Assembly: GCA_029775855.1 (NCBI GenBank)
Contig: JARVJZ010000002.1
Location: 95,800-159,799 of the forward strand
Length of the DNA stretch: 64,000 nt
Origin: Nitrososphaeria archaeon
GTDB lineage: Archaea > Thermoproteota > Nitrososphaeria > Nitrososphaerales > JAAOZN01
Reading direction: 5' to 3'
Numbering within the stretch: position 1 is the first letter of the stretch; each line of letters begins with the position of its first letter. A model generated the notes under the pieces. That model was given only the letters and a program-made list of their open reading frames with translations, did not search any database and had not been told where the DNA came from. Positions 13,910 to 60,500 of this stretch are shown here, piece by piece. The position numbers were made by a program, and so were the translations under genes.

Positions 13910-16789
13910 ATGCGGAAAAAATCTTTGAAGAATTTAGCTATCGGATTAGTCGCCATCATACTGCTCTTACCCTCACTAACAGCATCTGTAGCAGCTCAAG
14001 CAGCACCTAAAGGGCCCTATGTGGATAAAATCATCTACTTCCAGCTGCCAAGTGATGAAGAAGCCATAACCAAGATTCAGACAGGCGAAGCACATATGCG
14101 GTGGTGGGGGCTAAGAACTATCGAAGCCGTCAAAAAAGCTCAAGAAGCTGGGTTAAATATACTTGAATCACCATCTGGAGCATACGACATTCTCGTGAAC
14201 CCAGTGCCATTCCGTGAAGGTTTCAACCCATTCACTATATCTGAAATCAGAGAAGCCCTCAACTACCTCATAGATAGGTCATTTATAGCTAATGAAATTT
14301 TGAAAGGACTTGCTGTGCCCCGGTGGACACTCCATAGGTCTTTCTCACCGGATTATGCGCGAAACATCGTCTTTATGAAATCCCTTGAATCAAAGTATGC
14401 TTACGACTTCGATAAAGCGAAGATGATTATCTTCGAATCTATGGGCAAAGCTGGTGCAACCTTTGAAGAAGGCAAGTGGATGTATAACGGTAAACCCGTC
14501 GTAATCAAATTCTCCATAAGAGTTGAAGATTTAAGAAGAGCTATAGGTGACTACATTTCATCACAGCTTGAGAAGGTAGGTTTCACAGTAGAGAGAATGT
14601 ATCAGAGGGCTGCAGTGGCATTCGGCATAGTTTACAGCGGTAATCCAGCTGATGGTGCCTGGAACCTATATACTGAGGGCTGGGCTTACACAGGCATATC
14701 AGCCTACGAGGACACAGACGCATACTTCTACTACGTCTCCCCTGGAACAGATGCTGTTCATACTGTGTATAAGCCATCCCCGCTGCTTGTTGATGTAGCT
14801 ACAAAGCTTAATGAGGGGAAGTATGCTGACCTAGATGAGAGAAGTAGATTAGTAAGGTCTGCTAACGAACTCGCATTGAAGGATTCTGTTAGAATCTTTC
14901 TGGTTGACCAGCTGGAGGCATTCCCCTACTCTAAGACATTGCAGATTGGTGTTTCAGACCTATATGCTGGACCCTATGGTGTGCTCTTTGGTAGAAGTAT
15001 GAGGTTTGTGGATAAAGTTGGCGGAGAGGCGAAGATAGGTAGCAGAGTCATGTTCGTATCATCTTACCTTGCGATGCCTGGCTCTGGGGGAGGCACAGAT
15101 ATAGGCTTCAACTGGCTGTTCGATGGCTTAGTATTCAACAACCTATTTGATCCAGGGGTTTGGGTACATCCGCATACTGGACGCTACATGCCAATACGCA
15201 CCACTTTTAATGTGCAGACTGGCGGAGTAAAGGTGCCTGAAGATGCCTTAACTTGGTCTTGGGAGCAAGGTAAATGGGTTGCAGTAGGCAAGAATGTTAC
15301 TGCAAAGAGCAAAGTAACGTTTACAGCAACATTAGGTAAGTGGCACGACGGTGCAAACGTAGGTAAAGAGGATATTATGATGTTCATATATGAAATACTG
15401 GGCATAGCCACTCCAGGAAGCCCAATCCACGACCCAGCAGCGATCTCACCAGCTGTTCAGACATTCACTAACACCTTTAAAGGTGTAAAGTGGCTTAGCG
15501 ACAACGTCTACGAGATATACTTAGACTACACACATCCTGATGAGACATTCATAGCAGCCCAAGCTGATGTCTTCCCCTTCATGCCTTGGCAAGTATATGC
15601 TTTAGTAAACGCCCTTTACCAAGATAAGAAAGCTGCTTTCTCAGAGACCACAGCTACAGAGCTTGGTGTGACACAAATAGATCTAACTAAAGGCGACACG
15701 CTTCCTCTACTAAAAGAATACTTCAGCAAGATGGCACCTTCATACATTCATCCAGCTGTGAAGGACTTTGTGAAGGATGCGTCTTCAAGATGGAATTCAC
15801 TTAAAGCCTTCTCAGACAAATATGGACACTACCTTGTTATGAGTGGCCCATTCTTTATAGAGAGAGTTGACCCAGTAGCAGCCCAAGTAATCTTAGCAGC
15901 CTTCAGAGACTACCCCTACACTGCTGACAAGTGGGATTACCTACTTAAACCGAGGGTTCCAACCATAGGCGTCGAAGTTCCTAATGAGGTAGTTCCAGGA
16001 TTACCGGCGCTTATAAATGTGACGAGCAGAGTTGAAGGAAAGCCTTACAGTGATGTTAACGTGCAGTATGTCCTTGAAGACCCAAACGGGGTTGTAGTAG
16101 AGTCAGGCTTGGCTTCTGCTAAGGGAGCGGGTGTCTTTACAGTAGAGTTCAGCAAGGAAGTTACTAGTAAACTTACATCTGGCATCTATAAGCTTACAAT
16201 TATAGGTGTTGGTGCAGAAGCAGCCTTAGCAGCGGTTAAAACAGCGCCTATCAACGTCATACCCCAACTCGAATATATACTCAGAGAAGTTGGTGGCGTT
16301 AGGGAAGATATATCGAAGAAGCTTGAAAGTGAAATCACAAGCGTCCAAGAAAGCATATCGAAGAAACTCGAGAGCGAAATTACGAGCGTTCAAGGCGGCA
16401 TATCAAAGCAGCTTGAGAGCGTGCAAGCAGGCATAGCTGATGCTCTTAAGACCGTAGCTGTAGGAGTTGATAAGATGGGCACATCTCTAACAGAGTCAGT
16501 TAAAGTCGTTGCCACTGGGTTGGACAAGACAAACACCGCTGTGACAGAGGTTAGAACAGCGCTATCAGATGTTAAATCTGCTGTTGCAGATCTAAAGAGC
16601 ACTCAGACAACAAGTAGTCAGAGGCTAGAGAGCTCAATAGCTTCTCTTGAGGACAGCATAAACTCACTCACATCAAGTATACTTCAAATTTCAACATATG
16701 TCACAATAGCTATAGGTGTGGCGGTGGTAGCGATAGTGGTGGCAATAGTAGTTCCACTAGCCGTCTTAAGGTCAAGGAAGACAGGCTAA
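13910..16789 (+). CDS. ABC substrate-binding protein (family 5, peptide/nickel type) with a long C-terminal extension and C-terminal TM anchor
   Basis: An N-terminal hydrophobic signal/anchor (LAIGLVAIILLLPSLTASVAAQA) is followed by ~700 aa of SBP_bac_5-like sequence. The extension adds a ~100-aa beta-rich segment, a ~150-aa Ser/Thr/Leu-rich helical repeat region and a terminal TM helix plus RSRKTG. The gene is divergent from the permease/ATPase operon. Confidence 0.8.
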   Translation: MRKKSLKNLAIGLVAIILLLPSLTASVAAQAAPKGPYVDKIIYFQLPSDEEAITKIQTGEAHMRWWGLRTIEAVKKAQEAGLNILESPSGAYDILVNPVPFREGFNPFTISEIREALNYLIDRSFIANEILKGLAVPRWTLHRSFSPDYARNIVFMKSLESKYAYDFDKAKMIIFESMGKAGATFEEGKWMYNGKPVVIKFSIRVEDLRRAIGDYISSQLEKVGFTVERMYQRAAVAFGIVYSGNPADGAWNLYTEGWAYTGISAYEDTDAYFYYVSPGTDAVHTVYKPSPLLVDVATKLNEGKYADLDERSRLVRSANELALKDSVRIFLVDQLEAFPYSKTLQIGVSDLYAGPYGVLFGRSMRFVDKVGGEAKIGSRVMFVSSYLAMPGSGGGTDIGFNWLFDGLVFNNLFDPGVWVHPHTGRYMPIRTTFNVQTGGVKVPEDALTWSWEQGKWVAVGKNVTAKSKVTFTATLGKWHDGANVGKEDIMMFIYEILGIATPGSPIHDPAAISPAVQTFTNTFKGVKWLSDNVYEIYLDYTHPDETFIAAQADVFPFMPWQVYALVNALYQDKKAAFSETTATELGVTQIDLTKGDTLPLLKEYFSKMAPSYIHPAVKDFVKDASSRWNSLKAFSDKYGHYLVMSGPFFIERVDPVAAQVILAAFRDYPYTADKWDYLLKPRVPTIGVEVPNEVVPGLPALINVTSRVEGKPYSDVNVQYVLEDPNGVVVESGLASAKGAGVFTVEFSKEVTSKLTSGIYKLTIIGVGAEAALAAVKTAPINVIPQLEYILREVGGVREDISKKLESEITSVQESISKKLESEITSVQGGISKQLESVQAGIADALKTVAVGVDKMGTSLTESVKVVATGLDKTNTAVTEVRTALSDVKSAVADLKSTQTTSSQRLESSIASLEDSINSLTSSILQISTYVTIAIGVAVVAIVVAIVVPLAVLRSRKTG
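16310..16432 (+). repeat. In-frame 45-nt tandem repeat (2 full copies plus 1 partial) inside the SBP C-terminal extension
   Basis: ISKKLESEITSVQES / ISKKLESEITSVQGG / ISKQLESVQAG. The two full copies encode the same 13 residues but differ at many synonymous sites (aagcttgaaagtgaaatcacaagcgtccaa vs aaactcgagagcgaaattacgagcgttcaa). Confidence 0.85.
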
Positions 16790-16811: not shown

Positions 16812-16834
16812 ATAAAAATATATACGGAAAATTA

Positions 16835-16942
16835 TGGTGGGGCCGGCGAGATTTGAACTCGCGGTCGCCAGCGTTCTAGCCTTAGCCCCCAGGCTCACCG
16901 GCTCAGCCTCTGGTATCCTTGACCAAACTAGACGACGGCCCC
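16835..16942 (-). tRNA. Intron-containing tRNA with encoded CCA; best model is tRNA-Pro(GGG) with two introns (16 nt at 30/31, 13 nt at 37/38)
   Basis: Read on the minus strand: acceptor GGGGCCG/CGGCCCC, discriminator A and CCA. D-arm is GTCT-AGTTTGGTCAA-GGAT, with A14, G18G19 and A21. T-arm is GCGAG-TTCAAAT-CTCGC. The 108-nt length needs 29 extra nt between the anticodon-stem halves CCAG...CTGG. Removing 16894-16909 and 16874-16886 yields CCAGC-CUGGGGC-GCUGG. Both excisions sit in hand-folded bulge-helix-bulge motifs (see finding). Confidence 0.8.
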
Positions 16943-16965: not shown

Positions 16966-16981
16966 AGTTTTTAATATTATC
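16966..16981 (-). promoter_or_regulatory. TATA-box-like element upstream of the tRNA
   Basis: On the minus strand, ataatattaaaaa ends about 26 nt upstream of tRNA position 1. That spacing is typical for archaeal promoters. Confidence 0.4.
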
Positions 16982-17069: not shown

Positions 17070-17405
17070 TCATATCTCGTTGATTTCAGTTATGAACCTC
17101 ATATACCATTCTTTAAACTCTTTTGTTGAAGCGATATGCAGTTCTATTGGTGCATATAGACCAACGGTTCTCAGTATGTTCGCCTTTAACTCCGCTCTTC
17201 TATCTTTATCTATGTTATCGCAAACTATGAGTATATCTACGTCGCTTGATGCTGTGAATCTACCTTTTAGGACTGAGCCAAATACGTATATTCTTGCATC
17301 TTTGTAATCATTTCTGACAATTTCCTTGACTTTTGCTGCTAACTCTCTGTATTTAGTCAAGAGCTCTAATCGCTCCTTACCCGAATTTATATATTGCTTA
17401 AACAT
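17070..17405 (-). CDS. Minimal nucleotidyltransferase (MNT-type antitoxin-like)
   Basis: Contains the GSVLKGRFTASSDVDILIV pattern (GS...DxD polymerase-beta-fold NTase) in 111 aa. Its ATG overlaps the stop of the upstream HEPN C-terminal reading frame (gaagATGtttaa). Confidence 0.85.
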   Translation of the reverse strand: MFKQYINSGKERLELLTKYRELAAKVKEIVRNDYKDARIYVFGSVLKGRFTASSDVDILIVCDNIDKDRRAELKANILRTVGLYAPIELHIASTKEFKEWYMRFITEINEI

Positions 17406-17780
17406 CTTCGACTACATCTTTGAATTTTTCGGCGAAGGCGATAAGCTGCTCAACTTCCTTCTTCTCATACCTCCTTGGAATATATCGTGAGATAATATAA
17501 ACGTCTTCCATCTTCGTCAGCAGTAGAATTTCTGAGTCTATAAAGGAGGCTAAATTTTTTCTGGGTAAGCAGCATCGAGTTCTCTTAATATCCTTATAAG
17601 CGAATATGTCCTTGGGTATGTTCCGGTCCTTATCAATAGTTTATATTTTAACAGAAGTTGACAAAACTGTTCTAGATTAAAAGCTGCTAAATCATACTCT
17701 TTCTCCTCGAAGAGCCGTTTAGCGTTTCTTAAGAAAGAGTAGGCTCTTTCTCTTAACACCTCTGCTTCATCTATAGACAA
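17398..17780 (-). pseudogene. HEPN-domain gene split by a frameshift
   Basis: The 76-aa N-terminal part (17550-17780) ends at a TAG. The expected C-terminal half continues in another frame from 17547 to the TAA at 17398-17400: SFIDSEILLLTKMEDVYIISRYIPRRYEKKEVEQLIAFAEKFKDVVEDV. The two parts together total about 125 aa, a normal HEPN size. Confidence 0.65.
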
Positions 17781-17823
17781 ACCGCTGAAGGAGGGTTGTC
17801 CATGCTTTTAAATTTGATGCATT

Positions 17824-18603
17824 CTAGAGGGTGTGTTTAGTAGCCTTTACCAGCTTTAACTGTTCGAGGAGTTGGTGATAGGCGTTTTGGCTTGCCTTCT
17901 GCTTTTTATAGTATCGTATCGCTTCGATGATAATATCTTGGTTTTTGAGATTTAGAATTCGTCTAGCTTTATTTGCTACCGGTCCTCCGACGAATAGGTA
18001 TTGTGCTGCAGATGTTAGGTTTCTTACAGCACGCTCTGTAGAGGCTGATTCGAAGTCTATTATTTCAACCCTATCTGCTACTAAAACGTGTTTGTTTAGG
18101 TTGCTTAGCTCGCCGTGATCTAAGCCTGCTTGGTCTAGTCTCCAACATTTATCAAGTAAGTTTTTACATACGCTTCTCAGCTTTGAAGCTGCGCCTCTTC
18201 CCTTTAGATCTTTAACCCATTGAGGTAAGTTTATGCCTTTTATCAGCTCCATCAATATGAAGTTGTCGCTATACTTGTAGAGTTTGGGGCCTACATCTAG
18301 TTTGTTTGCTGCTGTGAGTAGCTCTGCTTCTCGATTTAGGTTCGGTCTGTTTGCGTCTATTCGTCTGATCTTTAAGGCTGCTTCACCTTGTTCCCATTTT
18401 GCTATCACTACTATGCTTACGCAACCCTTACCTAAGACTTTAAGACCAGAGATTTCAACCCTACCATCTAAAATTATCTCTTTCACACCAAGATCTTTGA
18501 GCTCCTTTAGACGGAGTTGAATCTGTGGTGGTGTAGGGTTTGGGTAGCATAGTATGTTTGAGTAAGGTGCTTCTGCTAAGGCTTCAAGCTGAATTGAATA
18601 CAA
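17824..18603 (-). CDS. Atypical RIO/Bud32-like small protein kinase
   Basis: Contains an LGKGCVSIVV glycine-loop-like segment, AALKIRR (Lys) and LDHGELSNLNKHVLV...VEIIDFESAS (catalytic loop plus a DFG-like IDF). It overlaps the cca 3' end by 20 nt. Confidence 0.65.
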   Translation of the reverse strand: MYSIQLEALAEAPYSNILCYPNPTPPQIQLRLKELKDLGVKEIILDGRVEISGLKVLGKGCVSIVVIAKWEQGEAALKIRRIDANRPNLNREAELLTAANKLDVGPKLYKYSDNFILMELIKGINLPQWVKDLKGRGAASKLRSVCKNLLDKCWRLDQAGLDHGELSNLNKHVLVADRVEIIDFESASTERAVRNLTSAAQYLFVGGPVANKARRILNLKNQDIIIEAIRYYKKQKASQNAYHQLLEQLKLVKATKHTL

Positions 18604-19978
18604 GTTGGTCTGTGGATACGAATTTATGCACCTCCTTCCTAAGCCAAGATATGTTTTCTACAGCATCAAGCGCTTCTTTGCCGGTTAGGATAGTGGTGGA
18701 TGTCTTAAGCGCTTCTCTTAAGCCTTCTGATACACCAAGTTCCTTTGGGTTTTTTAATATGCTACTTAACACATCTACTATGTCTCTCTGAACTCTTTCT
18801 TGTAGACTTACTATCCTACCATCCTCAGTGAACCATGTTGCGGTTGAGCGGTTTAGATTCTTCTCGATGAAGCGCGCAGTATCTTCCTTACGATACACCT
18901 CTGGACCTACCTTAAGCACATAGTTTGGTAGGGTTGTAGATTCTGTTAGTAGGAGAATAGCGCTTTCATCCTTCTCACTGCTAGCTTCAGATACCTTCAA
19001 AATCTCAAATCCCCTTATCTCCAGCTGCTTCCTTATTGCTTCTGAGGTTTTGTGAAGTTGACCCCAGATTATATCTGGGCTTCTTGGTTTATGCTTAAAT
19101 TTAAGTAGTATAAGATTGTCTAAAATCTTTTTAAGTATATGTGAAGTTTCTTGGTTTGCATCTGGTATTTTGAAATATTCTACTCTAGGTTTTTTCAAGA
19201 AGCTGCGCGCAGATAAGATAAGGGTTGCGAGGCTCTCTTCCGATACCGCAGCTCCGAGGTTGCGCTCCGGGTCAACAGGATCAAGTATTATAATCGGGTT
19301 TTGAAATCTTAGTCTCACGTCTGCTGGAACCTCGCCTAAGCTGATTATACTACCCCGCTCAAAATTTGAGAACGCAGTTAAGGTGTTTATGAAGCTTTGG
19401 TATTTGAGGATTAAGACTTCACATACATACCCGCTAAAGCCTTTAGTTTTAACTTCAGCGCCATAGATGTTTCTTGCTTTAAGAAACTTTTTGAGAAGCC
19501 TAACATCAGCTTTTAACTCCTCTTTAAGATGCTCCTTTACGTATTCTGTGTGGTAAGGCGAGCGGTCTGCAGCGCTTATCCACCGCCTTGGCTCAACATC
19601 AAAGCAAGGAACTACATTAACACGTATACCGTTGACGAAGCCTTCTAGATAGGGATGCTCTGAGTATCTTACAAGTGTTGGGTATCCCGCTAAGGTTTCT
19701 TCAGCCATATCCATAGATAAGCGTTTAAATTCTTCTTGGCCTATTTTGGTTGGAAACTTTAAGAAGAGGTCTATGTCGCAGTCTCCTTTAAGCCACGTGT
19801 CTTTAGCGTATGATCCTCCTATTACAGCTTTCCCCTCGATCTTTCTCTTCGCTATAACTTCTGAAGCTTTTTGGAGAATTTCTTGGGCTACCTTTGCTAC
19901 TCTTTTGCGTTCTTCTTCGTCTGGCTCACAAAGTTTGCGTGCTTCGACGAGTATATCATCGAGCATAGTGTGCATCAA
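18584..19978 (-). CDS. cca: CCA-adding enzyme (class I archaeal tRNA nucleotidyltransferase)
   Basis: Contains the GGSYAKDTWLKGDCDIDLFLKFP motif of archaeal CCA-adding enzymes. Length is 464 aa. Confidence 0.9.
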   Translation of the reverse strand: MMHTMLDDILVEARKLCEPDEEERKRVAKVAQEILQKASEVIAKRKIEGKAVIGGSYAKDTWLKGDCDIDLFLKFPTKIGQEEFKRLSMDMAEETLAGYPTLVRYSEHPYLEGFVNGIRVNVVPCFDVEPRRWISAADRSPYHTEYVKEHLKEELKADVRLLKKFLKARNIYGAEVKTKGFSGYVCEVLILKYQSFINTLTAFSNFERGSIISLGEVPADVRLRFQNPIIILDPVDPERNLGAAVSEESLATLILSARSFLKKPRVEYFKIPDANQETSHILKKILDNLILLKFKHKPRSPDIIWGQLHKTSEAIRKQLEIRGFEILKVSEASSEKDESAILLLTESTTLPNYVLKVGPEVYRKEDTARFIEKNLNRSTATWFTEDGRIVSLQERVQRDIVDVLSSILKNPKELGVSEGLREALKTSTTILTGKEALDAVENISWLRKEVHKFVSTDQLVFNSA

Positions 19979-20538
19979 CCTACTAGATTCTTCACATAAA
20001 GATCGGTGTAGATTGGTCCCTTGGGCGTTAAGTCGCTTTTTTTGAGCTTAATTTGAGTAAGAAGGTCTTCGCCGAAGACTGTGTCGAGGTTGGAGTTTAT
20101 GAGCTTTATTAGCGCTTCTTTGTTCCTCCCACTTTTAACCCTAGCTACTGTTAAATGTGGTGTAAAGGGTTTATGGTCGCCAACTTTAAGGTGAGCTATC
20201 TTAGATTCGACTATTTCAGCAAGATTACTTAAAAGCGCCCCACCCTCCCTATCTGAACCAACCCACAAGACATTCGGGCGCCATATCGAGGGAAAAGCGC
20301 CTACACCTTGATACACAACCTTAATCTGAGGCGCATCTATTTCTGAAAGGGCTTCCTTTACCTTTAAAATCAAGTTAGCATCTACTTCGCCTAAAAATTT
20401 TAAAGTAAAATGAAGGTTTTGGGGTTCAACAAGTTTAACATCAGCCCCGGTTTCAACGATAGCTCTCTGTAGTGCGGTCAACTTAGCTAAAGCATCTTTA
20501 TTCTCTAAGTCAACGGCTATGAAGACCCTCATCACCAT
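19975..20538 (-). CDS. thpR: RNA 2',3'-cyclic phosphodiesterase (2H phosphoesterase, LigT/ThpR)
   Basis: Carries two HxTx motifs (HFTLKFLG and HLTVARV) in 187 aa. It overlaps the cca start by 4 nt. Confidence 0.85.
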   Translation of the reverse strand: MVMRVFIAVDLENKDALAKLTALQRAIVETGADVKLVEPQNLHFTLKFLGEVDANLILKVKEALSEIDAPQIKVVYQGVGAFPSIWRPNVLWVGSDREGGALLSNLAEIVESKIAHLKVGDHKPFTPHLTVARVKSGRNKEALIKLINSNLDTVFGEDLLTQIKLKKSDLTPKGPIYTDLYVKNLVG

Positions 20539-28995: not shown

Positions 28996-31209
28996 TTGGA
29001 GCGTGAGAAGAAGCTTCGCTTAAATCTGACCGAAGAAGAAGTGGAGAGTCTCAGAAAGGCGCTTGGTAGAGAACCAAACGACCTAGAACTAGCTATGATT
29101 GACGCCGAATGGTCTGAACACTGCAGCTACAAATCCTCTAAACCCCTTCTGAAGCTACTACCCACTCAAGGAAAGCACGTTATTCTTGGCCCGGGATATG
29201 ATGCTGGCGTTCTGGATATAGGAGACGGCTATGTTCTCACCGCGCATATAGAGAGCCATAACCACCCCTCAGCCATAGATCCCTACGGTGGCGCAGCTAC
29301 AGGGGTTGGTGGGATACTTAGGGATATCATCTGTATGGGTACACGCCCTATAGCACTTCTGGACGTGTTAAGATTCGGCTCTATATCAGTAAGCAGCCAT
29401 TCAAGATGGCTCTTCAAGCACGTGGTTAGGGGAATAAGTGACTATGGGAACTGTGTGGGTGTGCCTACAGTTGGTGGAGAAGTTGAGTTCGACGAAACCT
29501 TCGAGAGAAACTGTCTGGTTGATGTAGTCTGCTTTGGTGTGGGGAAGAAAAGCGACCTTGTGCTTGCTGAGGCTAGGCATGTCGGTGATTCTATAATATT
29601 AATCGGCGGCTTAACTGGTCGAGATGGTCTGCACGGCTCATCATTCGCTTCAGCAGTTTTAACAGAAAGCTCTGAACAAGATAGGTCAGCGGTTCAGATA
29701 CCAGATCCCTTTGCTGAAAAGATGATTATGGAGGCAACGTTAGAATCTATAGGTACTGGTAGGGTAAGAGGACTAAAGGATCTAGGAGGAGGAGGATTGA
29801 GCTGCGGCTTATCTGAGATAGCAGACAAAGGAGGTACTGGTGTTGAGATCGAGCTTACACGAGTCCCCCTAAGTGAAGAGGATATGCATCCTATAGAGAT
29901 TATGATCTCAGAGTCCCAGGAGCGTATGCTCTTAGTTGTTGAAGGAGGCTATGAAGAGGAAGTAGCCAAGATATTCAGAAAATATGGTGTAAGATATTCT
30001 ATCATCGGTAAAGTAACTGATGATAAACATGTGACTGTGAAGAAAGCAGGAACGGTTTTAACGAAGATAAGGGCTGAGCTCCTCGCAAACGCTCCAATCA
30101 TTTACAGAAGAGCTGAGAAGCCTAAAAACATTGAATCATTGGCTAATACGCCGAGACCAGACGAACCCCACGACCTAGAAAAAACCCTCCTTCAACTTCT
30201 AAGCCTACCGAACATAGCTTCAAAGCAGTGGATCTACGAGCAATACGACCACGAAGTAGGCTTGAAGACGGTCATTAAACCCGGGCAGGCTGGAGCAGCT
30301 GTGCTACGCTTACCTAACAATAAATTCATTGCCGTCAGAGCTGATGGAAATTCTAAGCACTGCTACCTTGATCCTTACCACGGAGCCGCAGGCGTCTTCG
30401 CTGAGGCGTGTAGAAACGTTTTAGCCGTTGGTGCTAAGCCTATAGCTATGTTGGATCACCTCCAGTTCGGCGACCCTTCTAACCCAGAGGTATTCTGGGC
30501 GTTCAGCGAGTCTGTGAAGGGCATAGCTGATTACGCTAAAAACCTCAATATACCTTGCATAGGAGGGAAGGTGAGCTTCTATAACGAAGATAAGGTTAGC
30601 GGTAAAGCGATAAAACCCACACCAGTAGTAGCGGTAATAGGGTTAGCTGATGCTGTTGAGACATTGAAGAGTAACCGCTTGAGGGTGGGTTCAAGAATCC
30701 TAATATTAGGTGAAACTAAGCCTGAATTAGGTGGCTCTGAATATTATGAGGGTATACATGGTTTGGTAGGGGGAAAGGTGCCTAAAGTGGACTTTGAGTA
30801 TGAGAAAAGACTTCATAGATGCGTCTTAAAGATCGTATCTCTAGGTTTAGCTAAGAGCCTTGAAGATTTATCTAAAGGCGGGCTCGCAACAGCTTTGGCT
30901 GAACTAAGTATAAAATCAGGGGTTGGAATGAAGATAGATCTTAACAAAGTTCCTAATACATGTGAGCGGTTAGATGAAATCCTATTCTCAGAAACGCACG
31001 GAAGATTTGTAGCCGAAGCGAATGTAGGAGCAGAGGATAGAATAAAGAGAATCGCAGCGTCATTCAACATCCCTTGCGAAATTATAGGTGAAGTAGAAGG
31101 CGAGTATCTGTCATTCGAGAAAGGGGTGAAGAAGATTAAAGTGCAGTTACGCGAGTTAGAAGACACATGGAGATGCACAATACCTAAATTAATGGGTGAT
31201 GAGTGCTGA
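28996..31209 (+). CDS. purL: Phosphoribosylformylglycinamidine synthase subunit PurL
   Basis: Contains EWSEHCSYKSS, ESHNHPS and DYGNCVGVPTVGGE in 737 aa. Confidence 0.9.
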   Translation: MEREKKLRLNLTEEEVESLRKALGREPNDLELAMIDAEWSEHCSYKSSKPLLKLLPTQGKHVILGPGYDAGVLDIGDGYVLTAHIESHNHPSAIDPYGGAATGVGGILRDIICMGTRPIALLDVLRFGSISVSSHSRWLFKHVVRGISDYGNCVGVPTVGGEVEFDETFERNCLVDVVCFGVGKKSDLVLAEARHVGDSIILIGGLTGRDGLHGSSFASAVLTESSEQDRSAVQIPDPFAEKMIMEATLESIGTGRVRGLKDLGGGGLSCGLSEIADKGGTGVEIELTRVPLSEEDMHPIEIMISESQERMLLVVEGGYEEEVAKIFRKYGVRYSIIGKVTDDKHVTVKKAGTVLTKIRAELLANAPIIYRRAEKPKNIESLANTPRPDEPHDLEKTLLQLLSLPNIASKQWIYEQYDHEVGLKTVIKPGQAGAAVLRLPNNKFIAVRADGNSKHCYLDPYHGAAGVFAEACRNVLAVGAKPIAMLDHLQFGDPSNPEVFWAFSESVKGIADYAKNLNIPCIGGKVSFYNEDKVSGKAIKPTPVVAVIGLADAVETLKSNRLRVGSRILILGETKPELGGSEYYEGIHGLVGGKVPKVDFEYEKRLHRCVLKIVSLGLAKSLEDLSKGGLATALAELSIKSGVGMKIDLNKVPNTCERLDEILFSETHGRFVAEANVGAEDRIKRIAASFNIPCEIIGEVEGEYLSFEKGVKKIKVQLRELEDTWRCTIPKLMGDEC

Positions 31210-57500: not shown

Positions 57501-60500
57501 GCTTAACCGAAGACCAAACGCTACTTGACTCATTATCTAGATTTGCTACATTAACCAGAAGCCTCTTAGAAAGCCAAACTTTAACAGAGTCTGTTTCAAG
57601 GTTTCTAACCTTAAGCAGAGCCTTAACAGAATCTCCAACAATATCTGACACAGTAGATAGGCTTACATCTCTAACCAGAGCTTTAAGCGATACACAAGTT
57701 CTAACTGATTTAACGTCTAGGGCCGCTTCACTAACACGCACTTTAACCGAAACCCAAGGTTTAACAGATGCGCTCACAAGGCTGATAACTTCGGCGAGAA
57801 CAGTAACAGAGACTCCAATGTTCTCAGACTTGGTGTCAAGGGCAAGCACACTGACTCGAATATTGACAGAGGCTCCTTCGCTAACAGACGCTACTCAAAG
57901 AACGCTCCAACTGCTTAGGGCAGTAACAGAATCTCAAAGCCTAAACGACTCTATATCTAGACTACTAGCCTTAAGCAGATCACTAACCGAGGCGTCAACA
58001 TTAACAGAATACATCGATAGAGCAGCACAACTAGCAAGGAGCCTAACCGAAACACAACCGATCTCAGAAACCTTAGCTAGATACACATACCTTCTAAGAA
58101 CCATAACAGACTCAAACACCATTCAAGATACGCTCTCAAGACTAATCAGCGGAACAAGAGTGGTAGCGGACACTACATCACTCTCAGACATATTATCTAG
58201 GGCAGCAGAGTTTGCGAGAACCGCATCAGAAACGACTACGCTATCAGATATAGCAGTTAGATTTACCGCATTAACCAGAGCGTTAAGCGAAAACCAAGCC
58301 GTAGCAGATACAATAAGCAGATTAGCGGCATTAACCAGAGCAATAACCGAAACATCAAACCTCTCAGATGAAGTGCAAAGACTTGTTAATAGGTTAAGAG
58401 AACTATCAGAAACAGCAAGCATAACAGACACACTGGCAAGAACCTTAACACTAACAAGAACCTTAACCGAAGCCCAAAGCATATCAGACACCTTAACAAG
58501 AGCTACTGAATTAAGTAGGGTAGTTAGTGAGGCGCAGAGCTTCTATGAGGAGCTCTCTAGAAGCATACACTTTGCAAGAACCTTAACTGAGAGCCAGACA
58601 TTCTTAGATGATGTAAGTAGATTCGCTTCCCTTGCAAGAAACATTCTTGAAACACCTACTATATCAGACTCAATCAGCAGATTAACCACTTTAACTAGAA
58701 GCTTATCCGAGTCACAAACTATTAGCGATGCAGTCTCAAAGTTCATCACTCTCACAAGATCGATAACAGACACCACAACCCTAGCAGACACAGCCTCTAG
58801 ACTTACAGCCCTAACAAGAACCTTAGCAGACAGCCAAACCTTGGTTGACTCAATCTCAAGACTCGCCGCATTAACAAGAACCTTAATTGAAAACCCTTCA
58901 CTCACGGAGCAATTGGCAAGAACACTCACATTAAGTAGAGTGGTAAGCGAAACTCAGCCCCTAGCGGACTCAATAGTTAGACAGATATCCCTAACCAGAA
59001 GCTTAGAGGAGAACTCAGCGCTCACAGATATGTTAACAAGGGTTGCAACATTAACCAGAGCCGTCGAGGAGACTCCAACGATATCAGCTCTTGTAAGCAG
59101 AGTAGCATCACTAACCAGAACACTAAGTGAAACACAACTCTTCAACGACATATTAGATAGAACAGCAGCTCTCAGCAGATCCTTAAGCGAAAACCAAGCC
59201 ATAACCGATACTGTAAACAGATTCGTCTCTCTGAGCAGAAGCTTAACGGAGCAACCCTCATTCTCTGATGTAGCTACCAGAATTATTTCGCTAACTAGAA
59301 GCCTAACTGAAAACCCAAGTATATCTGATTCTGCTACAAGGCTCATTACTTTCGTAAGAAGTATATCAGAAGCAGCTTCGATTACAGATCTGGTTTCAAG
59401 AGCCGCAGATCTTAGCAGAAGCATACAAGAAGGCGTGCAAGTAGCAGACCTATTAACTAGGTTGACTACGCTAGCCAGAAGCCTAACTGATTCACAAGCC
59501 TTCACCGATTCCGTAGGTAGAGTAGCGGCTTTAACAAGAACCTTAAGCGAGAACGGGGCGTTCACAGACTTGGCATCCAGATTAGCCGCATTAACCAGAA
59601 CTTCAACTGAAGCATCTACTTTGTCCGACTCATTAAGTAGGTTAACCACATTAACCCGAACCTTAGCCGAATACCCAGCGCTCTCAGATCAAATTTTAAG
59701 GCTTGTAAACTTCCCCAGAAGCCTAAGCGACACACAAGTAATATCAGATTATGTTGAAAGATGGGTGATTTTAGCACGATCAATAACAGATAATCAAGCC
59801 ATTACAAGCTCGGTAGATAGAGCCCTATCTCTTACCAGAGCGATCTTAGAGGCGCAGAGCATAACAGATACGGTATCCAAATTCACCGCAGTCACAAGAG
59901 CCTTAGCAGACTCAGCAACCATAAGCGACTTTGCTACAAGATTAAGCGTCGCATTCAGAAGCATATCAGAAACACAAACAATACTTGATGCGGCAACCAG
60001 ACTCACTACATTAACCAGAACATTGAGCGAAACGCAAACAGTATCAGAGTCGATTTCAAGACTATTAAGCTTAAGCAGAGCCCTAAACGAATACCCAGCA
60101 CTATCAGAATCCTTAACCAGATTCACAATCCTAGTAAGAAGCTTAGCAGACTATTCAACAATCTCAGACACTACAGCCAGAATCTCCTATCTGGCAAGAG
60201 AGTTAACTCAACCCACTACTTTAAGCGAAAGCATCGATAGGTTGAGCGTGTTAGCTAGAAGCGTTACTGAAAACCAAGGTTTAACCGACATACTTTCTAG
60301 ACTCTTCTCACCAACAAGAACCCTAACCGAAACCTCAAGCTTATCAGAAGCAGCATCTACATTAGCAAACCTAGCTCGAACCCTAACAGAACAACCCATC
60401 TTCACAGACCTAACATCAAGAGCAGCATATCTAACCAGAACCCTAACACAAACACTAACATTTAACGACTTAGCCGCTAGAACAGCCACTTTAACCAGAA

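What the first reader, a model, noticed from the sequence alone, without database searches (positions are those of the whole stretch)
16835..16942. 108-nt tRNA gene whose anticodon arm can only be rebuilt by removing two short introns (30/31 and 37/38), giving tRNA-Pro(GGG)
**Why two introns**
- The acceptor stem (GGGGCCG/CGGCCCC, A73, encoded CCA), D-arm and T-arm are canonical.
- However, 45 nt lie between the anticodon-stem halves CCAG and CTGG, where a mature arm has 9.
- I tried every single excision. None gives a 7-nt loop with U33 and a sensible anticodon. The only U33 options give AGA with a mismatched 31-39 pair.
- Removing AGGCTGAGCCGGTGAG (16894-16909) and GCTAAGGCTAGAA (16874-16886) gives a perfect arm: CCAGC-CUGGGGC-GCUGG.

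**Both excisions fit a hand-drawn bulge-helix-bulge**
- Intron 1 has a central helix UACC/GGUG and an inner helix GGC-UGA-GCC. Its 3-nt bulges AG|A and AG|C are cut at symmetric positions.
- Intron 2 has a central helix CUGG/CUAG, which includes the anticodon, and bulges GG|G and AA|C.

**Context**
- The acceptor stem matches what I remember for archaeal tRNA-Pro.
- Multi-intron tRNAs at non-canonical positions are known mainly from Thermoproteales-type and related archaea. This is therefore also a taxonomic clue.
Basis: partly seen in the sequence, partly recalled or inferred. Interest (0 to 1): 0.55.

Follow-up and report, generated by a model that had tools for sequence, protein, structure and literature searches.

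The report
Two-intron archaeal proline tRNA gene
This is a real proline tRNA gene of an uncultured archaeon, interrupted by two very short introns. It is a well-documented kind of gene and ordinary, although related genomes carry the same gene with two, one or no introns.

Summary
On the minus strand, window 16942->16835 holds a 108-nt gene. Removing 16 nt (16909-16894, between tRNA positions 30/31) and 13 nt (16886-16874, position 37/38) leaves a 79-nt tRNA-Pro(GGG) with encoded CCA.

- **Exon junctions.** At the same chromosomal position, related genomes carry this gene with no intron, with only the 37/38 intron, or with both. The uninterrupted versions read CCAG|CCTGGGG|CGCTGG, the predicted junctions.
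- **Splice motif.** In both introns a 4-bp helix ends exactly 2 nt before each splice site (UACC/GGUG and CUGG/CUAG). In a positive control, 40 of 46 canonical tRNA-Pro introns showed the same geometry. Shuffled introns reached it 2.3% of the time. Shifted registers and ARAGORN's single-intron tRNA-Ser(AGA) layout fail.
- **Conservation.** In the one other two-intron orthologue, the four differences all lie at unpaired intron positions. The exons are 76/76 identical.

Corrections:
- 38 nt, not 45, separate CCAG and CTGG.
- Intron 1 has a relaxed HBh' motif, not a strict bulge-helix-bulge.
- NCBI labels the source "Nitrososphaerales archaeon", not Thermoproteales. Multi-intron tRNAs and the 30/31 position are already documented for archaea.

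Splicing itself has not been tested.

The parts
16835..16942 (-). Whole tRNA-Pro(GGG) gene: 108 nt with two introns and an encoded CCA (16837-16835).
   Evidence: Sequence read. The spliced 79-mer is called tRNA-Pro(GGG) by ARAGORN. The spliced 76-mer aligns without gaps to 13 other archaeal tRNA-Pro(GGG) sequences, with compensatory changes in the anticodon and T stems.
16910..16942 (-). Exon 1 (tRNA positions 1-30): acceptor 5' strand, D-arm, and CCAG of the anticodon stem.
   Evidence: Identical to L132. Differs by only 1-2 nt (D-loop positions) from the intron-less or one-intron orthologues L129, L130, L133 and L138.
16894..16909 (-). Intron 1: 16 nt, AGGCUGAGCCGGUGAG, between tRNA positions 30 and 31 (non-canonical).
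   Evidence: Absent from L130, L138, L129, L133, L141, L142 and L139, which read CCAG|CCTGGGG without interruption. Present in L132 with changes only at i6 and i16, both unpaired. Central-helix test 4/4.
16912..16915 (-). 5' strand (UACC, tRNA positions 25-28) of the central 4-bp helix of the intron-1 splice motif. It pairs with GGUG at 16899-16896. The 5' bulge is AG|A.
   Evidence: 4/4 pairs; registers shifted by 1-2 nt give 0-2. The same helix appears in the minimum-free-energy fold of the intermediate lacking intron 2.
16896..16899 (-). 3' strand (GGUG) of the intron-1 central helix. It is followed by AG|C, which holds the 3' splice site.
   Evidence: Conserved in L132.
16900..16908 (-). 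Inner hairpin h' of intron 1: GGC-UGA-GCC.
   Evidence: Seen directly in the sequence. In L132 the only change is in the loop (UGA to UCA), and the stem is kept.
16887..16893 (-). Exon 2: 7 nt, CCUGGGG (tRNA positions 31-37). The anticodon GGG is at 16890-16888.
   Evidence: Invariant in all orthologues. Contiguous with both neighbouring exons in the intron-less genes.
16874..16886 (-). Intron 2: 13 nt, GCUAAGGCUAGAA, at the canonical position 37/38. The central helix is CUGG (positions 32-35, 16892-16889) paired with CUAG (16879-16876). The bulges are GG|G and AA|C.
   Evidence: Central-helix test 4/4. Orthologues L130 and L138 carry 15- and 14-nt introns at the same site ending GGCTAGAG. Many other archaeal tRNA-Pro(GGG) genes have introns ending ...C(U/C)(A/G)GA(A/G)|C.
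16838..16873 (-). Exon 3 (tRNA positions 38-73): anticodon-stem 3' strand, variable loop CGACC, T-arm, acceptor 3' strand and A73.
   Evidence: Three T-stem pairs differ from the sister clade by compensatory double changes (G-C to C-G, C-G to U-A, A-U to G-C).
16968..16979 (-). TATA-box-like element TAATATTAAAAA, ending 25 nt upstream of the mature 5' end. Putative archaeal promoter.
   Evidence: TAAT(A/C)TTAAAAA is the only conserved block in otherwise diverged upstream flanks of six orthologues. Its function is inferred, not shown.
16814..16831 (-). T-runs (TTTT at 16831-16828, TTTTT at 16818-16814) just downstream of the CCA. Putative oligo-T termination signals.
   Evidence: Sequence read. 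Inference from general knowledge of archaeal termination; not tested.

Best explanation
This is a functional gene for tRNA-Pro(GGG) in an uncultured archaeon. The source is MAG GCA_029775985.1, which NCBI labels Nitrososphaerales.

**Proposed pathway:**
1. The gene is transcribed from a TATA-like box about 25-36 nt upstream, giving a precursor with two protein-spliced introns.
2. Intron 1 (16 nt, position 30/31) sits in the 5' strand of the anticodon stem. It presents a relaxed HBh' motif made of a 4-bp helix UACC/GGUG, a 3-nt 5' bulge AG|A, an inner hairpin GGC-UGA-GCC, and AG|C at the 3' site.
3. Intron 2 (13 nt, position 37/38) presents the usual hBH motif. The outer helix is the anticodon stem. 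The 4-bp helix CUGG/CUAG includes the first two anticodon bases. The bulges are GG|G and AA|C.
4. The archaeal splicing endonuclease cuts 2 nt 3' of each strand of each central helix, and an RNA ligase joins the three exons.
5. The intron-1 helix borrows C27 and C28 from the anticodon stem, so the full outer helix of intron 2 exists only after intron 1 is removed. Intron 1 is therefore probably removed first.

**Shown here:** the gene anatomy, the exact exon junctions (from orthologues), the motif geometry and the conservation pattern.

**Inferred:** transcription, the enzymes involved, the order of the two excisions, and that splicing happens at all.
For: 1. **Spliced product.** ARAGORN calls the 79-mer tRNA-Pro(GGG). 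The 76-mer aligns without gaps to 13 archaeal tRNA-Pro(GGG) sequences.
2. **Natural series at the same locus.** The locus lies between the MNT/HEPN pair and a peptide-ABC substrate-binding-protein gene.
   - L129, L133, L141 and L142 have no intron.
   - L139 has none as far as it reads; its contig ends in the anticodon arm.
   - L130 and L138 have only the 37/38 intron.
   - L132 and the window have both.
   - The exon junctions in the uninterrupted genes are exactly those predicted.
3. **Motif geometry.** A 4-bp helix ends 2 nt before each splice site, scoring 4/4 for both introns. In the positive control, 40/46 canonical tRNA-Pro introns score 4/4 and the other six 3/4. Shuffled introns reach 4/4 in 2.3% of cases each. 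All 1-2 nt shifts fail.
4. **Uniqueness.** Of 18 two-excision products with an acceptable arm, only this layout scores 4/4 for both introns. No single excision gives a 5-bp stem.
5. **Conservation, window against L132.** The exons are 76/76 identical and the introns 25/29. All four changes lie at unpaired motif positions. The upstream flank is only 20/53 identical.
   - In L132 the last intron-1 base is A. This removes the boundary ambiguity and fixes the site at 30/31.
6. **Selection on the exons.** There are compensatory double changes in the T-stem between the two clades, and the upstream TATA-like box is conserved.
7. **Literature.**
   - 30/31 is a listed non-canonical intron position (PMC4090602).
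   - hBH and HBh' motifs are accepted splice-site formats (PMC4090602).
   - Thaumarchaeota have alpha2beta2 endonucleases (PMC4090602).
   - Multi-intron thaumarchaeal tRNAs are known, and sequential removal of close introns is described (PMC8450103).
Against: - There is no RNA evidence of any kind. Everything here is in silico.
- Intron 1 lacks a proper outer helix. The best is a 3-bp AGG/CCU with a 1-nt offset that would open the D-stem, so cleavage needs an endonuclease with broad specificity.
- No endonuclease gene was looked for. Only 64 kb of the genome is held.
- Thermodynamic folding of the precursor does not give the cloverleaf or the motifs as the minimum-free-energy structure: -46.8 kcal/mol against about -30 for the motif-bearing structures. 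The mature sequence also fails to fold as a cloverleaf in this test, so the test is uninformative.
- Only two independent intron-1 sequences exist and they show no compensatory change, so the intron-1 helices have no covariation support.
Confidence: 0.92

Rival explanations
1. The gene has a single 29-nt intron at 31/32 and encodes tRNA-Ser(AGA). This is ARAGORN's call when intron search is switched on.
For: ARAGORN -i reports tRNA-Ser(aga) with intron i(35,29) on the precursor.
Against: - The arm would be CCAGA-CUAGAAC-GCUGG, with an A31xG39 mismatch.
- The splice-motif test at those boundaries scores 0/4.
- The variable loop is 5 nt. From general knowledge, archaeal tRNA-Ser has a long variable arm, and A34 is not normally used in archaea.
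- The segment CCUGGGG, which this model discards, is exon sequence in all nine orthologues.
Confidence: 0.01
2. The gene is a decaying or non-functional tRNA-Pro copy. The 16-nt insertion in the anticodon stem is a disruptive insertion rather than a spliceable intron.
For: - Intron 1 lacks a strict bulge-helix-bulge.
- Standard tools do not recognise the gene.
- There are no expression data.
Against: - It is the positional orthologue of intact tRNA-Pro(GGG) genes.
- The same insertion persists in a second species whose neighbouring proteins are only 70-90% identical. There the exons are 76/76 identical and changes fall only at unpaired intron positions.
- The 4-bp helix, 3-nt bulge and inner hairpin are all in the exact register needed for cleavage.
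- The promoter-like box is conserved.
Confidence: 0.05
3. The same mature tRNA is produced, but with other details: intron-1 boundaries shifted to 28/29 or 29/30 (the window sequence allows this because both the exon and the intron end in AG), or intron 2 removed first using the mimic helix AGC/GCU.
For: - The mature sequence is unchanged by a 1-2 nt shift in the window (sequence).
- A 3-bp mimic outer helix (precursor positions 48-50 with 71-73) is possible in the window (structure B).
Against: - In L132 the intron ends in AA, so shifting the boundaries would give CCAA and break the 30-40 pair.
- Shifted registers score 0-2 of 4 in the motif test.
- The mimic helix loses a pair in L132 (-27.3 against -30.7 kcal/mol).
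Confidence: 0.02
4. The locus is a tmRNA-like RNA, as the Rfam RF00023 hit would suggest.
For: The Rfam tmRNA model matches 16835-16942 at 33.3 bits, E = 1e-9, in E-value mode.
Against: - The score is below the gathering score of 47.
- Only the tRNA-like ends (acceptor and T-arm) align, and 108 nt are matched to a 374-position model.
- ARAGORN reports no tmRNA.
- From general knowledge, tmRNA is bacterial.
- The orthologues are plain 76-nt tRNAs.
Confidence: 0

Closest known systems
Archaeal tRNA genes with multiple or non-canonical protein-spliced introns. Examples are the Thermoproteales tRNAs found with SPLITS/SPLITSX, and Pyrobaculum islandicum tRNA-Pro(UGG) with introns at 25/26, 37/38 and 56/57 (PMC4090602).
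   Same: Short introns flanked by bulge-helix-bulge-type motifs. One canonical intron is combined with one non-canonical intron. 30/31 is already a listed insertion point. Relaxed hBH and HBh' motifs occur. Close introns are likely removed one after the other (PMC8450103).
   Different: The host is labelled Nitrososphaerales, not Thermoproteales. This particular combination (30/31 plus 37/38 in tRNA-Pro(GGG)) in this lineage was not found in the papers I read, though I could not consult GtRNAdb or SPLITSdb. No related intron copy was seen elsewhere in the data held, so there is no sign of the intron transposition reported for Thermoproteales.
Thaumarchaeal non-canonical tRNA introns. tRNAscan-SE 2.0 has a dedicated thaumarchaeal BHB covariance model and reports 107 non-canonical introns in the Thaumarchaeota genomes it analysed (PMC8450103).
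   Same: Same phylum-level label. Same phenomenon of several short introns per tRNA gene. An alpha2beta2-type endonuclease is expected (PMC4090602).
   Different: I could not run tRNAscan-SE, so fit to the thaumarchaeal intron model is untested.
Canonical 37/38 introns of archaeal tRNA-Pro(GGG).
   Same: Intron 2 has the same position, the same CUGG-containing central helix, and the same 3' end ...CUAGAA|C as introns in Desulfurococcales, Thermoproteales and other MAGs.
   Different: At 13 nt it is at the short end of the 14-28 nt range among the parsed examples. It has no inner helix.

Membership tests
Archaeal elongator tRNA-Pro (GGG isoacceptor) | After splicing, a cloverleaf with a 7-bp acceptor stem, 4-bp D stem, 5-bp anticodon stem, 7-nt loop with U33 and a purine at 37, 5-nt variable loop, and 5-bp T stem with a UUCAAAU loop. 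| tested here: met
   Sequence read. ARAGORN calls the 79-mer tRNA-Pro(GGG). Gapless 76-column alignment with 13 archaeal tRNA-Pro(GGG) sequences.
Archaeal elongator tRNA-Pro (GGG isoacceptor) | Anticodon GGG with G37, discriminator A73 and G1-C72. That these are proline identity features is my own knowledge, not tested biochemically here. | tested here: met
   Present in the spliced sequence. Invariant in the orthologues.
Archaeal elongator tRNA-Pro (GGG isoacceptor) | Positional orthology to uninterrupted tRNA-Pro(GGG) genes. | tested here: met
   Same gene neighbourhood in L129, L130, L132, L133, L138, L139, L141 and L142.
Protein-spliced archaeal tRNA intron (bulge-helix-bulge class) | A central 4-bp helix with both splice sites 2 nt 3' of its strands, inside 3-nt bulges. 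| tested here: met
   Intron 1: UACC/GGUG with AG|A and AG|C. Intron 2: CUGG/CUAG with GG|G and AA|C. Both score 4/4. Control 40/46; shuffles 2.3%.
Protein-spliced archaeal tRNA intron (bulge-helix-bulge class) | The strict hBHBh' form, with both an outer helix h and an inner helix h' flanking the bulges. | tested here: not met
   Intron 1 has h' (GGC/GCC) but only a weak, offset outer helix, so it is HBh'. Intron 2 has h (the anticodon stem, complete only after intron 1 is removed) but a 9-nt loop in place of h', so it is hBH. Relaxed forms are accepted members of the class in Crenarchaeota and Thaumarchaeota (PMC4090602).
Protein-spliced archaeal tRNA intron (bulge-helix-bulge class) | The host encodes a broad-specificity splicing endonuclease (alpha2beta2 or epsilon2) and an RtcB-type ligase. 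| not tested
   Only the 64-kb window and short loci of the genome are held, and no endonuclease gene was searched for. Thaumarchaeota are reported to have alpha2beta2 enzymes (PMC4090602).
Protein-spliced archaeal tRNA intron (bulge-helix-bulge class) | Excision and exon ligation are observed in RNA. | not testable with these tools
   No transcript data are available.
   NCBI names the window's proteins as from 'Nitrososphaerales archaeon'. The lineage was checked. The label is the depositor's and I did not verify it phylogenetically.
tRNA-Ser(AGA) with one intron (ARAGORN -i) | A 5-bp anticodon stem, a long variable arm, and a splice motif at the intron boundaries. | tested here: not met
   A31xG39 mismatch, a 5-nt variable loop, and a motif test of 0/4.
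tmRNA (Rfam RF00023) | A score at or above the gathering threshold, plus a tag-peptide reading frame and pseudoknots. | tested here: not met
   33.3 bits against a threshold of 47. ARAGORN finds no tmRNA.

The most novel reading that the evidence does not exclude
The locus captures a recent, lineage-specific gain of a non-canonical intron.
- The 16-nt intron at 30/31 is present only in the window/L132 clade, whose tRNA exons are identical to each other.
- It is absent from seven syntenic orthologues in the sister clade.
- The canonical 37/38 intron is itself present or absent among those relatives.

If the polarity is gain rather than repeated loss, this set of near-isogenic loci with 0, 1 and 2 introns would be a clean natural system for asking how archaeal tRNA introns are inserted at the DNA level. 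That mechanism is still unknown (PMC4090602). It would also allow a test of whether the intron's GCCGGUG segment, which can mimic the anticodon-stem 5' strand, reflects an origin by local duplication.
Probability: 0.3. Interest if true: 0.4.

Novelty: new member of a known kind. Interest (0 to 1): 0.22.

Why it matters
**Annotation.** This tRNA-Pro(GGG) is invisible to default ARAGORN and to Rfam. With ARAGORN's intron option it is mis-called tRNA-Ser(AGA). A genome annotated that way would seem to lack a proline isoacceptor, or to contain an impossible serine tRNA.

**Biology.** It adds a further example of multi-intron tRNA genes outside Thermoproteales. It also provides a tidy series of orthologous loci with zero, one and two introns, which could be used to study intron gain and loss. 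It does not reveal a new mechanism.

Tried and rejected
- **Default ARAGORN and Rfam gathering scan of the window.** Nothing found.
- **Rfam E-value mode.** It gave only a sub-threshold tmRNA hit on the gene itself, rejected as an artefact of the tRNA-like ends.
- **ARAGORN with introns.** It gave tRNA-Ser(AGA) with a 29-nt intron, rejected.
- **ARAGORN at a lowered threshold.** It gave three more 'tRNAs', none counted as a gene.
  - 57589-57679 and 58007-58086 have no Rfam match.
  - 30544-30711 has no Rfam match at E <= 0.01.
  - 57589-57679 also lies inside a 220-aa open reading frame.
  - My own T-arm/acceptor scan found only the one gene.
- **Unconstrained RNAfold of the precursor, intermediates and mature tRNA.** None folds as a cloverleaf, so free-energy folding says nothing for or against the motifs.
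- **Metagenome scan for relatives with an insertion after CCAG/CCAC.** Only two hits, from another lineage, with an intron inside the anticodon loop. They were of no use for intron 1.
- **More intron-1 carriers through homologues of the CCA-adding enzyme and the substrate-binding protein.**
  - Only L132 carries intron 1, so covariation in the intron-1 helices could not be tested.
- **Search for a donor copy of intron 1.** I allowed up to 3 mismatches in all held DNA (1.08 Mb). Only chance-level hits were found.
- **Sugahara et al. 2007 (PMC1852824).** Not held in the library.

Full report
**What is in the sequence.**
- The feature lies on the minus strand. Read from 16942 down to 16835, it is 108 nt long:
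  GGGGCCGUCGUCUAGUUUGGUCAAGGAUACCAG | AGGCUGAGCCGGUGAG | CCUGGGG | GCUAAGGCUAGAA | CGCUGGCGACCGCGAGUUCAAAUCUCGCCGGCCCCACCA
- These elements are all in place:
  - The acceptor stem GGGGCCG/CGGCCCC.
  - U8.
  - The D-arm GUCU-AGUUUGGUCAA-GGAU.
  - The 5-nt variable loop CGACC.
  - The T-arm GCGAG-UUCAAAU-CUCGC.
  - A73 and an encoded CCA.
- Between CCAG and CUGG there are 38 nt. The excess over a mature arm is 29 nt, equal to 16 + 13.
- Default ARAGORN and Rfam at gathering thresholds report no tRNA anywhere in the 64-kb window.
- A T-arm/acceptor scan of my own finds only this one candidate.

**Testing the two-intron layout on the sequence alone.**
- Removing 16909-16894 and 16886-16874 gives a 79-mer that ARAGORN calls tRNA-Pro(GGG).
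- With its intron option, ARAGORN instead proposes one 29-nt intron and tRNA-Ser(AGA).
- I enumerated every single 29-nt excision. None gives a 5-bp anticodon stem.
- I then enumerated every pair of excisions summing to 29 nt.
- I therefore applied the geometric rule of the archaeal splice motif: a 4-bp helix must end exactly 2 nt before each of the two cut sites. PMC4090602 describes this motif as a 4-bp helix flanked by two 3-nt bulges, with the first two anticodon bases in the helix.
- Results of the rule:

| Case tested | Pairs formed (of 4) |
|---|---|
| 46 single canonical introns parsed from archaeal tRNA-Pro genes (positive control) | 40 introns at 4/4, 6 at 3/4 |
| Window intron 1 (UACC/GGUG) | 4/4 |
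| Window intron 2 (CUGG/CUAG) | 4/4 |
| Either window intron shifted by 1-2 nt | 0-3 |
| ARAGORN's single 29-nt intron | 0/4 |
| Shuffled window introns | 4/4 in 2.3% of shuffles, for each intron |

**Comparative evidence.** This is the decisive part.
- The window matches contig JARVJY010000006.1 of MAG GCA_029775985.1, and three assemblies carry an identical tRNA gene.
- NCBI labels its proteins 'Nitrososphaerales archaeon'.
- I used homologues of two neighbouring genes to fetch syntenic loci from related organisms. The CCA-adding enzyme homologues were 66-70% identical and the peptide-binding protein homologues 79-90%.
- At the same position, between the MNT/HEPN pair and the binding-protein gene, the tRNA-Pro(GGG) gene occurs in three states:

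| State | Loci |
|---|---|
| No intron | L129, L133, L141, L142, and L139 (as far as its contig reaches) |
| Only a 37/38 intron (15 or 14 nt, ending GGCTAGAG) | L130, L138 |
| Both introns | L132 and the window |

- The uninterrupted genes read ...GGATACCAG-CCTGGGG-CGCTGGCG..., which are exactly the predicted junctions.
- L132 differs from the window at 4 of 105 positions. All four are in the introns, and all are at positions unpaired in the splice-motif model:
  - intron 1, base 6, in the loop of the inner hairpin;
  - intron 1, base 16, in the 3' bulge;
  - intron 2, base 1, in the 5' bulge;
  - intron 2, base 3, in the loop.
- The exons of L132 and the window are 76/76 identical, while the upstream flank is only 20/53 identical.
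- Intron 1 of L132 ends in AA. This removes the 1-2 nt boundary ambiguity present in the window and fixes the insertion at 30/31.
- Between the two clades, three T-stem pairs change by compensatory double substitutions. This is the signature of a tRNA under selection.
- A TAAT(A/C)TTAAAAA box, ending 25 nt before the mature 5' end in the window, is the only conserved block in the upstream flanks. It fits an archaeal promoter; that reading is an inference.

**Motif anatomy and likely order of events.**
- Intron 2 is a standard hBH site.
  - The outer helix is the anticodon stem.
  - The central helix is C32-U33-G34-G35 paired with CUAG.
  - The bulges are GG|G and AA|C.
  - There is a loop instead of an inner helix.
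- Intron 1 is an HBh' site.
  - The central helix is U25-A26-C27-C28 paired with GGUG.
  - The 5' bulge is AG|A.
  - The inner hairpin is GGC-UGA-GCC.
  - The 3' site is AG|C.
  - The outer helix is at best a 3-bp, offset AGG/CCU that would open the D stem.
- The intron-1 helix uses C27 and C28, so the full anticodon stem that serves as the outer helix for intron 2 can form only after intron 1 is gone. Removal of intron 1 first is the simplest order. This is an inference.
  - tRNAscan-SE 2.0 describes such dependent, closely spaced introns (PMC8450103).
- Free-energy folding does not help. Neither the precursor nor the mature sequence folds into a cloverleaf as the minimum-energy structure.

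**Comparison with what is known.**
- Archaeal tRNA genes with non-canonical and multiple introns are well documented.
- 30/31 is explicitly listed among the insertion points (PMC4090602).
- hBH and HBh' sites are recognised formats (PMC4090602).
- Thaumarchaeota, Crenarchaeota and Nanoarchaeota carry the alpha2beta2 endonuclease associated with such sites (PMC4090602).
- tRNAscan-SE 2.0 includes a covariance model trained on thaumarchaeal introns, and counts 107 non-canonical introns in the Thaumarchaeota genomes it analysed (PMC8450103).
- The finding is therefore a new member of a known kind.

**What remains open.**
- There are no RNA data, and no endonuclease or ligase genes were examined.
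- Only two independent intron-1 sequences exist, so there is no covariation support for its helices.
- No related copy of intron 1 was found in the 1.08 Mb of DNA held, so its origin is unknown.
- The distribution of intron 1 suggests a clade-specific gain, but I did not build a species tree. It is present in 2 of 9 syntenic loci, and those 2 share identical exons.

**Verdict.** Confidence that this is a spliced, two-intron tRNA-Pro(GGG) gene is about 0.92. Interest is low to moderate: it is useful for annotation and gives a tidy example of intron presence/absence variation, but it is not mechanistically new.

Noticed in passing
window 17070-20538 (minus strand), next to the tRNA gene: A conserved run of RNA-related genes lies directly upstream of the tRNA.
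- A LigT-type 2'-5' RNA ligase/phosphoesterase, 19975-20538.
- The CCA-adding enzyme, 18584-19966.
- A weak RIO1-like protein, 17824-18603.
- A HEPN protein, at about 17400-17780.
- An MNT nucleotidyltransferase, 17070-17405.

The same order recurs in relatives whose proteins are about 70% identical. Whether the linkage to the tRNA gene means anything was not examined.
   Followed up: partly
window 16835-16942: The Rfam tmRNA model (RF00023) matches the intron-containing tRNA at E = 1e-9 (33.3 bits, below the gathering score of 47). The acceptor and T-arm ends align and the long insert is tolerated. This is a possible source of false tmRNA calls in archaeal genomes.
   Followed up: yes
Orthologous loci L129, L130, L132, L133, L138, L141, L142: 3' end of the tRNA gene: The 3'-terminal CCA is encoded in the window, L132 and L130. 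It is not encoded in L129 and L133 (CCT) or in L138, L141 and L142 (CTT, CTT and CTA). Genomic CCA is therefore variable within this small group.
   Followed up: no
L140 5848-6010: In one relative the tRNA gene and the MNT/HEPN pair are missing downstream of the binding-protein gene. A large N6-methyltransferase/Eco57I-like restriction-modification gene sits there instead.
   Followed up: no
L071 135-230 and L096 2239-2341: Archaeal-type tRNA-Pro(GGG) genes with introns occur on contigs of MAGs labelled as bacteria (Spirochaetes; Candidatus Sulfotelmatobacter). This probably reflects mis-binned archaeal contigs. The L096 gene has a roughly 27-nt insertion in the D-loop region.
   Followed up: no
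L127 43-113 and L128 3807-3875 (JGI metagenome contigs): Two tRNA-Pro(GGG) genes from another lineage carry a roughly 30-nt intron inside the anticodon itself (CCTG...GGCTA|GGGGC, around position 33/34 or 34/35) rather than at 37/38.
   Followed up: no
L022 6347-6437 (Candidatus Njordarchaeum guaymaensis): A tRNA-Pro(CGG) gene has a 17-nt A/T-rich insertion in the 5' strand of the anticodon stem, flanked by the direct repeat CCGGA. This is a non-canonical intron near 30/31 in an Asgard archaeon, and its exact position is ambiguous.
   Followed up: no
window 13910-16789 (plus strand): The 959-aa peptide/nickel-type substrate-binding protein that ends 46 nt from the tRNA gene has a repeated ISKKLESEITSVQ motif and a C-terminal hydrophobic anchor. 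Its closest homologues outside the clade are from Nezhaarchaeales, Aigarchaeota, Thermofilaceae and unclassified Thermoproteota MAGs.
   Followed up: no
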